From: Escherichia coli
GTDB taxonomy: Bacteria; Pseudomonadota; Gammaproteobacteria; Enterobacterales; Enterobacteriaceae
Direction: 5' to 3' (one strand)
Length of the DNA stretch: 64,000 bases
Assembly: GCF_003334815.1 (NCBI RefSeq)
Contig: NZ_QOWO01000012.1
Under the pieces are notes generated by a model. That model was not told the DNA's origin and ran no database searches. It was given only the letters and a program-made list of their open reading frames with translations. Position 1 is the first letter of the stretch. Every line of letters starts with the position of its first letter. Positions 54,717-54,971 of this stretch are shown one piece after another. Both the position numbers and the translations under genes were made by a program.

Positions 54717-54825
54717 TAAAAAACGCCCCAGTCATTACTGACTGGGGCGGCTAAAATATTCAGCCAAATCCGATTACGTGAAGTAAAAGGTCTGAAAGAT
54801 AGAACATCTTACCTCTGTACCCTAC
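54717..54825 (-). ncRNA. spf: Spot 42 small RNA
   Basis: Minus strand reads GTAGGGTACAGAGGTAAGATGTTCTATCTTTCAGACC...GCCGCCCCAGTCAGTAATGACTGGGGCGTTTTTTA, matching my recollection of the 109-nt Spot 42 RNA including its terminator. Confidence 0.9.
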
Positions 54826-54971
54826 GCGACTAACTTTACTCTTTTTTGTTCAGTTCAGAAAGCACTTTTTGTAATTTTTTTTCAGTTGTTGCATAGGAAT
54901 TTCTAATAGCCATCACAAAACGTGACAGCTTATGTTGCTTACTTACGAAAAAAGGCATGTTCAGGCGAATC

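What the first reader, a model, noticed from the sequence alone, without database searches (positions are those of the whole stretch)
54717..54900. Spot 42 sRNA immediately downstream of polA, with an overlapping spurious ORF
The minus strand of 54717..54825 matches the Spot 42 RNA, including its terminator hairpin. The ORF track places a 63-aa ORF (54836..55027) over the spf promoter region and the polA 3' end, which is almost certainly not coding. The spf promoter and any CRP site should lie in 54826..54900; I could see a TGTGA-containing candidate but not a clean consensus.
Basis: partly seen in the sequence, partly recalled or inferred. Interest (0 to 1): 0.3.

Follow-up and report, generated by a model that had tools for sequence, protein, structure and literature searches.

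The report
Known E. coli Spot 42 (spf) gene
This is the well-known E. coli spf gene for Spot 42, a small sugar-use regulatory RNA that also encodes the 15-residue protein SpfP; the 63-codon ORF over its promoter is a chance reading frame, so the locus is ordinary.

Summary
The minus strand of 54717..54825 is the E. coli spf gene. It scores 122.8 bits on Rfam Spot_42 (threshold 80) and is base-for-base identical to K-12 MG1655 b3864. It lies 146 nt downstream of polA and converges on yihA, and this gene order is kept in most of the gammaproteobacterial loci examined.

The 63-aa ORF (54836..55027, minus) is spurious. Its full length exists only in E. coli. One E. coli strain has lost the start codon and carries a frameshift. 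Substitutions show no coding pattern. RefSeq does not annotate it, and the exact sequence is absent from a collection of about 15 billion proteins.

- **Spot 42 is not purely non-coding.** It contains the annotated, experimentally shown 15-aa SpfP ORF (54807..54760).
- **The CRP site is further upstream than stated.** The documented site, TTTTGTGATGGCTATTAGAAAT, lies at 54920..54899, centred at -84.5. That is almost entirely outside 54826..54900 and inside the spurious ORF.

It has a -10 TAAAGT, a poor -35 and a strongly conserved A-rich block resembling an UP element. The poor -35 explains why no clean consensus was visible.

Verdict: already known, low interest.

The parts
54717..54825 (-). 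spf gene: the 109-nt Spot 42 RNA. The +1 G is at 54825. RefSeq extends the 3' end two more bases, to 54715.
   Evidence: Rfam RF00021 scores 122.8 bits against a gathering score of 80. The sequence is identical to MG1655 b3864. The 109-nt length is given in PMC8916003.
54778..54825 (-). Stem-loop I (nt 1-48). It sequesters the spfP Shine-Dalgarno sequence and start codon, and holds seed regions for pairing with mRNA targets.
   Evidence: Minimum-free-energy and centroid fold. The 5' ~60 nt are almost invariant across 71 distinct homologues. The sequestered ribosome-binding site is discussed in PMC8916003.
54760..54807 (-). spfP CDS: 15 aa, MFYLSDLLLHVIGFG, then TGA. The GAGG Shine-Dalgarno sequence is at 54815..54812.
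   Evidence: Annotated as b4837 in MG1655 and as spfP in RefSeq genomes. A 15-codon ORF is kept in 113 of 116 homologous loci. Translation and CRP binding are shown in PMC8916003.
54766..54777 (-). Single-stranded linker (nt 49-60, GUAAUCGGAUUU). It is a base-pairing region and contains the single GGA bound by CsrA.
   Evidence: Unpaired in the fold. The CsrA GGA site and the base-pairing regions are described in PMC8916003.
54749..54765 (-). Stem-loop II (nt 61-77).
   Evidence: Fold. One pair shows G-C to A-U double changes in 10 homologues.
54718..54749 (-). Intrinsic terminator: hairpin 54749..54724 plus T-run 54723..54718. The U-tail is the expected Hfq-binding 3' end.
   Evidence: Terminator scan. 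An 11-nt perfect inverted repeat. Compensatory changes occur in 6 stem pairs across homologues.
54833..54838 (-). -10 hexamer TAAAGT (-13..-8).
   Evidence: The consensus is TA[A/G/C]A[G/T]T at the same distance from +1 in all 118 loci, with 0.94 mean identity in Enterobacteriaceae. Assigning it as the -10 element is an inference from position.
54856..54861 (-). Weak -35 region TTTCTG (-36..-31), with a conserved CTTT at -37..-34.
   Evidence: Anchored conservation profile. The simple sigma-70 scan finds no promoter because this hexamer is poor.
54863..54884 (-). A-rich upstream block TGAAAAAAAATTACAAAAAGTG (-59..-38). It resembles an UP element.
   Evidence: It is among the two most conserved promoter blocks, with 0.93 identity in 31 Enterobacteriaceae, and is recognisable in Vibrionaceae and Aeromonas. 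The UP-element reading is an inference from the published consensus as I recall it.
54899..54920 (-). cAMP-CRP binding site TTTTGTGATGGCTATTAGAAAT, centred at -84.5.
   Evidence: The sequence is quoted as the E. coli spf CRP site in PMC3295665, which cites Polayes et al. 1988. Its 16-bp core has 2 mismatches to TGTGA-N6-TCACA. A match lies at -84.5 in most Enterobacteriaceae and, as the left half-site, in most Erwiniaceae.
54932..54949 (-). Conserved block TTCGTAAGTAAGCAACAT just after the polA T-run. Its function is unknown.
   Evidence: 0.90 mean identity in 31 Enterobacteriaceae, against 0.60-0.64 in the flanks. A related GTAAtTAAgCtACA occurs across Enterobacterales.
54836..55027 (-). 63-codon ORF. 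It is spurious, a chance open frame across the polA 3' end, the CRP site and the spf promoter. Its stop codon is the TAA of the -10 hexamer.
54972..57758 (-). polA (DNA polymerase I, 928 aa), the upstream neighbour.
   Evidence: ORF list. RefSeq annotation.
53959..54591 (+). yihA/engB (GTPase), the convergent downstream neighbour.
   Evidence: Synteny is shown.

Best explanation
The locus is the canonical E. coli spf gene.

A sigma-70 promoter drives transcription from G 54825. It has a -10 TAAAGT and a weak -35, probably compensated by an A-rich block at -59..-38 that resembles an UP element. The transcript ends at an intrinsic terminator around 54717, giving the 109-nt Spot 42 RNA.

When glucose is scarce, cAMP-CRP binds the site centred at -84.5 (54920..54899) and lowers transcription. 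When glucose is plentiful, the RNA accumulates. With Hfq, it pairs through its single-stranded regions with mRNAs for uptake and catabolism of non-preferred carbon sources (galK, srlA, fucI, nanC and others) and represses them.

The same transcript is also an mRNA for the 15-aa SpfP (54807..54760). Its Shine-Dalgarno sequence and AUG sit inside stem-loop I. [quoted passage not shown]

Shown here: identity, ends, structure, ORF, site positions, conservation and synteny. Taken from the literature: CRP repression, Hfq dependence, the targets, and SpfP translation and function. Inferred: the UP-element role of the A-rich block and the way CRP represses from -84.5.

The 63-codon ORF upstream is not a gene.
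For: - **Family match:** the Rfam Spot_42 hit scores 122.8 bits (gathering score 80) over the full model.
- **Identity:** 100% identical to MG1655 from -260 to +130, where spf (b3864) and spfP (b4837) are annotated.
- **Distribution in E. coli:** the region is present once in 5425 of 5426 complete E. coli genomes at 95% identity or more.
- **Structure:** the fold has z = -5.1 and three hairpins. The terminator is found by scan and by repeat search, and its stem shows compensatory changes across 71 distinct homologues.
- **SpfP:** a 15-codon ORF is kept in 113 of 116 loci.
- **CRP site:** the sequence quoted in the literature is found exactly at 54920..54899. It sits at -84.5 in most Enterobacteriaceae loci.
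- **Promoter blocks:** the -10 and the -59..-38 block are conserved. Aeromonas loci, where no polA C-terminus was matched upstream, keep the -10 and the -59..-38 block.
- **Synteny:** the order polA, spf, convergent yihA is kept across most Enterobacterales, Vibrionaceae and Alteromonadales-like loci.
- **Function:** taken from PMC8916003.
Against: Nothing in the sequence argues against it.

Limits of the evidence:
- No transcript data were available here, so the 5' and 3' ends rest on the annotation and the literature.
- The primary paper on the CRP site (Polayes et al. 1988) could not be read, so the site comes from a secondary citation.
- A two-mismatch CRP-like match is not significant as a pattern on its own. 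The window holds 29 such matches against 26 expected by chance. Its credibility comes from the literature and from positional conservation.
- The 5' 60 nt are too conserved to give covariation support for stem-loop I.
- The first six SpfP codons were fixed by the search pattern used to collect the homologues.
Confidence: 0.97

Rival explanations
1. The 63-codon ORF (54836..55027, minus), or its 25-codon core starting at the ATG inside the CRP site, is a real small-protein gene. It would be translated from polA read-through transcripts.
For: - The frame is open with an ATG start.
- No canonical terminator was found between the polA stop and spf, so the region may be transcribed with polA.
- A 25-26-codon version stays open in about two thirds of the Enterobacteriaceae loci.
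Against: - **Length:** the full 63 codons exist only in E. coli. The open frame is 11 codons in E. albertii, 4 in Klebsiella and Raoultella, and 5 in Mangrovibacter.
- **Frame:** the intergenic length differs by +1, +2, -1, -9 or -11 nt in most relatives.
- **Within E. coli:** in strain 2017-02-2CC the start codon is ACG and a 1-nt insertion shifts the frame, while spf and its promoter are intact.
- **Substitution pattern:** diversity by codon position is 0.277/0.337/0.255 (0.231/0.303/0.208 for the core), with no third-position excess. The polA control gives 0.11/0.077/0.36. In the overlap with polA, variation falls on the ORF's second position, which is polA's third.
- **Ribosome binding:** no Shine-Dalgarno sequence is visible before either ATG.
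- **Databases:** the exact sequence is absent from about 15 billion predicted proteins, and RefSeq annotates nothing there.
- **Alternative cause:** the residual openness is explained by DNA-level conservation of the CRP site, the A-rich block and the -10. The stop codon is the TAA or TAG of the -10 hexamer.
Confidence: 0.02
2. Spot 42 here is a purely non-coding base-pairing sRNA, and the internal 15-codon frame is incidental.
For: - An early study concluded that Spot 42 is not an mRNA (Rice et al. 1987, as summarised in PMC8916003 and PMC3295665).
- The ORF overlaps the base-pairing regions, so its conservation could be driven by the RNA function alone.
- The Shine-Dalgarno sequence and the AUG are buried in stem-loop I.
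Against: - PMC8916003 reports a chromosomally SPA-tagged SpfP detected at all temperatures tested. It also reports copurification with CRP, and phenotypes of recoded and stop-codon alleles that separate the RNA and protein functions.
- The gene is now annotated as b4837/spfP in RefSeq.
- The length and stop position are kept at 15 codons in 113 of 116 loci, including Vibrionaceae and Aeromonas.
Confidence: 0.05
3. Spot 42 has no promoter of its own and is produced by processing of polA read-through transcripts.
For: - No intrinsic terminator was found between the polA stop and spf +1.
- No sigma-70 consensus promoter was found by the simple scan.
- The spacing between polA and spf is tightly conserved.
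Against: - A -10-like hexamer lies at a fixed distance from the RNA 5' end in all 118 loci, and the block at -59..-38 is conserved.
- The Aeromonas loci keep these blocks although no polA C-terminus was matched upstream of spf there.
- In Photorhabdus, Providencia and Morganella, polA ends 0.3-3.3 kb away.
- The literature describes CRP-repressed transcription initiation at spf.
- The scan fails only because the -35 is weak.
Confidence: 0.02

Closest known systems
Spot 42 RNA (spf, b3864; Rfam RF00021) of E. coli K-12
   Same: The sequence is identical over the gene and 260 nt upstream. The neighbours, terminator, promoter and CRP site are the same.
   Different: Nothing. This is that gene.
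SpfP (b4837), the 15-aa CRP-binding protein encoded in Spot 42
   Same: The ORF MFYLSDLLLHVIGFG is identical and at the annotated position.
   Different: Nothing. The stop codon read here is TGA, whereas the figure legend in PMC8916003 says TAA. This is a trivial discrepancy in the paper's text.
Other dual-function sRNAs of carbon metabolism (SgrS/SgrT in E. coli; VcdRP/VcdP in Vibrio cholerae)
   Same: Each is one transcript that acts both by base pairing and through a small protein in the same pathway (PMC8916003; PMC8672173, listed).
   Different: In Spot 42 the ORF overlaps the pairing regions, and the protein targets a transcription factor (CRP). There is no sequence relationship to these RNAs.
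Vibrionaceae spf loci (for example Aliivibrio salmonicida)
   Same: Same RNA core, same synteny (polA, spf, yihA), same -10 position and same A-rich block at -59..-41 (PMC3295665).
   Different: There is no CRP-like site at -84.5. A clear polA terminator hairpin precedes spf. A further sRNA (VSsrna24) lies downstream in Aliivibrio.

Membership tests
Spot 42 RNA (Rfam RF00021) | Covariance-model score at or above the curated gathering threshold, over the full model | tested here: met
   122.8 bits against a threshold of 80, model positions 1-115 of 115, E = 3.6e-24.
Spot 42 RNA (Rfam RF00021) | Three-hairpin architecture ending in a Rho-independent terminator with a U-tail | tested here: met
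   The fold gives hairpins at nt 1-48, 61-77 and 78-101, followed by U6. The terminator is found by scan. Compensatory changes occur in the terminator stem.
Spot 42 RNA (Rfam RF00021) | Near-invariant 5' region and single-stranded seed regions | tested here: met
   Positions 1-60 are nearly invariant across 71 distinct sequences from Enterobacterales, Vibrionaceae, Aeromonas and others. Positions 13-37 were fixed by the search pattern.
Spot 42 RNA (Rfam RF00021) | Genomic context: downstream of polA and convergent with yihA/engB | tested here: met
   In the window, the polA stop is at 54972, spf at 54825..54717, and yihA at 53959..54591 on the plus strand. The same order holds in most of the 118 loci and in the literature.
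Spot 42 RNA (Rfam RF00021) | Transcription repressed by cAMP-CRP through an upstream site | tested here: inconclusive
   The documented site sequence is present at 54920..54899 and is positionally conserved. Binding and repression cannot be tested with these tools.
Spot 42 RNA (Rfam RF00021) | Hfq-dependent pairing with mRNAs of secondary carbon metabolism (galK and others) | not testable with these tools
   Literature only (PMC8916003). No known target gene was examined in the window.
Dual-function sRNA encoding SpfP | 15-codon ORF starting at +19, preceded by a Shine-Dalgarno sequence, encoding MFYLSDLLLHVIGFG | tested here: met
   The ORF is at 54807..54760 with GAGG at +11..+14. It is annotated as b4837.
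Dual-function sRNA encoding SpfP | Translation of the ORF and binding of the product to CRP | not testable with these tools
   Reported in PMC8916003.
Protein-coding gene (for the 63-codon ORF 54836..55027) | Reading frame kept in relatives, with substitutions concentrated at third codon positions | tested here: not met
   The frame is broken in E. albertii, Klebsiella and one E. coli strain. Diversity by codon position is 0.277/0.337/0.255, against 0.11/0.077/0.36 for polA.

The most novel reading that the evidence does not exclude
The regulatory region upstream of spf may be more modular and lineage-specific than the textbook picture of CRP repressing spf.

- The CRP site at -84.5 is confined to Enterobacteriaceae and Erwiniaceae.
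- Morganellaceae carry an invariant GCTGAATCG box at about -77 instead. From memory this resembles a Cra/FruR half-site.
- The element conserved from Aeromonas and Vibrio to E. coli is the block at -59..-38, with a nearly fixed YTACA core. It could be the binding site of an unassigned regulator rather than only an UP element.
- A further conserved block (54932..54949) has no assigned function.
Probability: 0.2. Interest if true: 0.3.

Novelty: already known. Interest (0 to 1): 0.05.

Why it matters
The result matters only as a quality check.

- It shows that the first-stage reader can recognise a classic sRNA from raw sequence and correctly discount an ORF-track artefact.
- It flags two refinements an annotator should carry over: the spfP small ORF inside the RNA, and the true position of the CRP site.

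Spot 42 is biologically important as a core element of catabolite repression and a model dual-function RNA, but everything essential about this locus is already published and annotated.

Tried and rejected
- **Sigma-70 consensus scan of 54550..55100.** It found no promoter on either strand. This is explained by the weak -35 and is not evidence against a promoter.
- **CRP pattern search across the window.** It gave 29 matches against 26 expected, so pattern matching alone cannot validate the site.
- **A divergent CRP-activated promoter on the plus strand** (the crp autoregulation model) as the repression mechanism. By eye there is no convincing -10 at class I or class II distance from the site, and the scan found none. 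Rejected for lack of support.
- **Reading the block at -59..-41 as a CRP site.** The half-sites do not fit TGTGA-N6-TCACA (inspection of the sequences; best matches lie elsewhere). Rejected.
- **Reading the block at 54932..54949 as a TyrR, UvrY/SirA, ArcA, CpxR or GalR-type box**, using consensus sequences from memory. The spacing does not fit any of them. Left unexplained.
- **Folding the polA-spf spacer.** It is not unusually structured (z = -1.26). The 9-bp hairpin overlapping the left half of the CRP site does not appear in the other genera listed.
- **RNAalifold on a MAFFT alignment.** It gave a distorted consensus for the 5' domain because that part is invariant. Only the 3' hairpins were informative.
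- **Primary literature.** Polayes et al. 1988 (PMC211256) is not held.
- **Permissive Rfam scan of the region.** It gave only sub-threshold chance hits besides Spot_42.

Full report
**1. What is there**

The Rfam scan of the whole window puts a full-length Spot_42 (RF00021) match at 54835..54717 on the minus strand. It scores 122.8 bits against a gathering score of 80, with E = 3.6e-24. A permissive rescan of the region finds nothing else above noise. The first ten model positions are unpaired flank, so the RNA proper begins at G 54825.

The 390 bases from -260 to +130 around that G are identical to E. coli K-12 MG1655. There RefSeq annotates spf (b3864) at 4049899..4050009 and spfP (b4837) at 4049917..4049964. 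These map to window 54825..54715 and 54807..54760. The region 54560..55060 is present exactly once in 5425 of 5426 complete E. coli genomes at 95% identity or more. The window is therefore ordinary E. coli chromosome.

polA occupies 54972..57758 on the minus strand and yihA occupies 53959..54591 on the plus strand. spf thus lies 146 nt after the polA stop and converges on yihA.

**2. Anatomy of the RNA**

The 109-nt sequence folds into three hairpins, at nt 1-48, 61-77 and 78-101, followed by U6. The energy is -40.6 kcal/mol, with z = -5.1 against dinucleotide shuffles. The last hairpin plus the T-run is the only terminator-like site in 54550..55100 and the only perfect inverted repeat there.

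I collected 120 loci from other genomes with the core GGTAAGATGTTCTATCTTTCAGACC. They come from Enterobacterales, Vibrionaceae, Aeromonas, Plesiomonas, Neiella and Bowmanella. Among 71 distinct homologues, the 5' ~60 nt are practically invariant, so they cannot show covariation. The terminator stem shows double compensatory changes at six pairs and hairpin II at one pair.

The internal ORF runs from the AUG at +19 to the UGA at +64. GAGG lies at +11..+14. The ORF encodes MFYLSDLLLHVIGFG and stays exactly 15 codons long in 113 of 116 loci. The first six codons were fixed by my search pattern; the other nine were not.

**3. The promoter region**

I anchored all loci at +1.

- **-10 element.** A hexamer TA[A/G/C]A[G/T]T sits at -13..-8 everywhere. 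In E. coli it is TAAAGT at 54838..54833.
- **-35 element.** This region is poor: TTTCTG at 54861..54856, with only CTTT conserved.
- **A-rich block.** Immediately upstream lies TGAAAAAAAATTACAAAAAGTG at -59..-38 (54884..54863). With the -10 hexamer it is the best-conserved promoter block, at 0.93 identity in 31 Enterobacteriaceae. It is recognisable in Vibrionaceae and Aeromonas. By position and composition it matches the UP-element consensus as I recall it (Estrem et al. 1998). I infer that it compensates for the weak -35. This is not tested.

**4. The CRP site**

PMC3295665, citing Polayes et al. 1988, gives the E. coli spf CRP site as TTTTGTGATGGCTATTAGAAAT. That string is at 54920..54899 on the minus strand, centred at -84.5.

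As a bare pattern, a two-mismatch match is not significant: the window holds 29 such matches against 26 expected. Its position, however, is conserved. In most Enterobacteriaceae loci the best CRP-like match in the 150 nt upstream is at -84.5, typically TGTGAYNNNNATTAGA. In most Erwiniaceae loci the TGTGAC half-site is at -84.5. In the E. albertii type strain a 10-bp deletion moves it to -74.5, which is one helical turn.

Only its last two bases fall inside that range. How CRP represses from -84.5 cannot be decided from sequence. I found no support for a divergent CRP-activated promoter (and inspection).

**5. The 63-codon ORF**

The ORF exists as described, at 54836..55027 on the minus strand. 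It starts inside polA in another frame and stops at the TAA of the -10 hexamer. It is not a gene, for the following reasons.

- **Length in relatives.** The full length occurs only in E. coli. The open frame is 11 codons in E. albertii, 40 in Salmonella (25 from an ATG), 4 in Klebsiella and Raoultella, and 5 in Mangrovibacter.
- **Frame.** The intergenic length differs from E. coli by amounts that are not multiples of three in most relatives.
- **Within E. coli.** Strain 2017-02-2CC has ATG changed to ACG, which is synonymous in polA, plus a 1-nt insertion. Its spf gene and nearly all of the promoter (one substitution near -39) are unchanged.
- **Substitution pattern.** Diversity by codon position is flat, at 0.277/0.337/0.255. 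The adjacent polA control shows the coding signature, at 0.11/0.077/0.36. Inside the overlap, variation falls on polA's third position.
- **Databases.** The exact sequence is absent from about 15 billion predicted proteins, and RefSeq annotates nothing there.

A 25-26-codon remnant stays open in many Enterobacteriaceae. This is explained by DNA-level conservation of the CRP site, the A-rich block and the -10.

**6. How it works**

This section draws on the literature as summarised in PMC8916003. Spot 42 is abundant in glucose-grown cells, and cAMP-CRP represses its transcription. With Hfq it pairs with and represses mRNAs for non-preferred carbon sources such as galK, srlA, fucI and nanC, forming a multi-output feed-forward loop with CRP. 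CsrA binds its single GGA (here nt 55-57) and stabilises it.

The same RNA is translated into SpfP, which binds CRP and blocks activation of some promoters (galE P1, malE). This effect is more prominent at higher temperature, when stem-loop I, which buries the Shine-Dalgarno sequence and the AUG, is more open. None of this was tested here. The sequence features required for each step are all present.

**7. Context and synteny**

The order polA, spf, convergent yihA holds across most loci. The polA-spf spacer is 135-149 nt in all Enterobacteriaceae but one (273 nt in Cedecea), and about 173-180 nt in Vibrio. No polA C-terminus was matched upstream in the Aeromonas loci. In several Morganellaceae polA ends 0.3-3.3 kb away. 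Both groups keep the -10 and the -59..-38 block, which argues for an autonomous promoter rather than processing of polA read-through.

In E. coli I found no canonical terminator between the polA stop and spf +1. Vibrionaceae and Aeromonas have an obvious one.

**8. Verdict**

Two corrections apply: the spfP ORF was missed, and the CRP site lies almost entirely outside the stated range. The locus is already known and fully annotated, and interest is low.

The only mildly new material is comparative. CRP control appears to be lineage-restricted. Morganellaceae carry a GCTGAATCG box instead. Two conserved upstream blocks have functions that are inferred (54863..54884) or unknown (54932..54949).

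Noticed in passing
window 54932..54949 (minus strand): The block TTCGTAAGTAAGCAACAT, just after the T-run that follows polA, is 0.90 identical across 31 Enterobacteriaceae, while its flanks are 0.60-0.64. A related quasi-palindrome, GTAAtTAAgCtACA, occurs across Enterobacterales. It fits none of the transcription-factor consensus sequences I could recall.
   Followed up: partly
L004, L005, L018, L024, L032, L042, L058, L063, L064, L086, L113, about -77 relative to spf +1: Eleven of the twelve Morganellaceae loci (Providencia, Photorhabdus, Xenorhabdus, Morganella, Moellerella; L121 has GCTTAATTG instead) lack the CRP-like site at -84.5. They carry an invariant GCTGAATCG instead. From memory this resembles a Cra/FruR half-site, which would suggest a different carbon-state regulator of spf in that family.
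   Followed up: partly
L008 (Escherichia albertii NBRC 107761), -50..-40 relative to spf +1: A 10-bp deletion removes TTACAAAAAG from the A-rich upstream block and moves the CRP site from -84.5 to -74.5, exactly one helical turn. Only one genome was seen.
   Followed up: no
window 54605..54700: The spacer between yihA and the spf terminator holds REP-like imperfect palindromes (GCCGGATGTGGCGTATCCGGC and GGCCTGATAAACATAGCGCATCAGGC). This is the part of the region that varies among E. coli strains, with 23-nt and 7-nt deletions in strain 2017-02-2CC.
   Followed up: partly
window about 53496..53662 (minus strand), inside CsrC (53435..53688): One RefSeq genome (NZ_CP103570.1) annotates a 'hypothetical protein, frameshifted; internal stop' pseudogene that lies entirely on the CsrC sRNA (Rfam 276 bits). 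This is an annotation artefact. MG1655 annotates csrC there.
   Followed up: partly
window 1321..1398, 10243..10313, 10335..10405, 51114..51191: Four Rfam naRNA4 hits (75-79 bits). These are REP/BIME repeat elements.
   Followed up: no
window 46399..46506 (minus), 44441..44509 (minus), 19484..19542 (plus): Other Rfam hits above threshold: ES222 sRNA (135 bits), STnc370 (55.6 bits against a threshold of 54, so marginal), and a SECIS_3 selenocysteine insertion element (84 bits) that presumably lies inside a formate dehydrogenase gene.
   Followed up: no
window 54905..54927 (minus strand): A 9-bp hairpin, AGCUGUCAC-guuuu-GUGAUGGCU, overlaps the left half of the CRP site. Sequences from the other genera do not show it, and the spacer as a whole is not unusually structured (z = -1.26).
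   Followed up: yes
PMC8916003, Fig. 1 legend, versus window 54762..54760: The paper's legend calls the spfP stop codon TAA. In the sequence the stop that gives a 15-aa product is TGA (+64..+66).
   Followed up: yes
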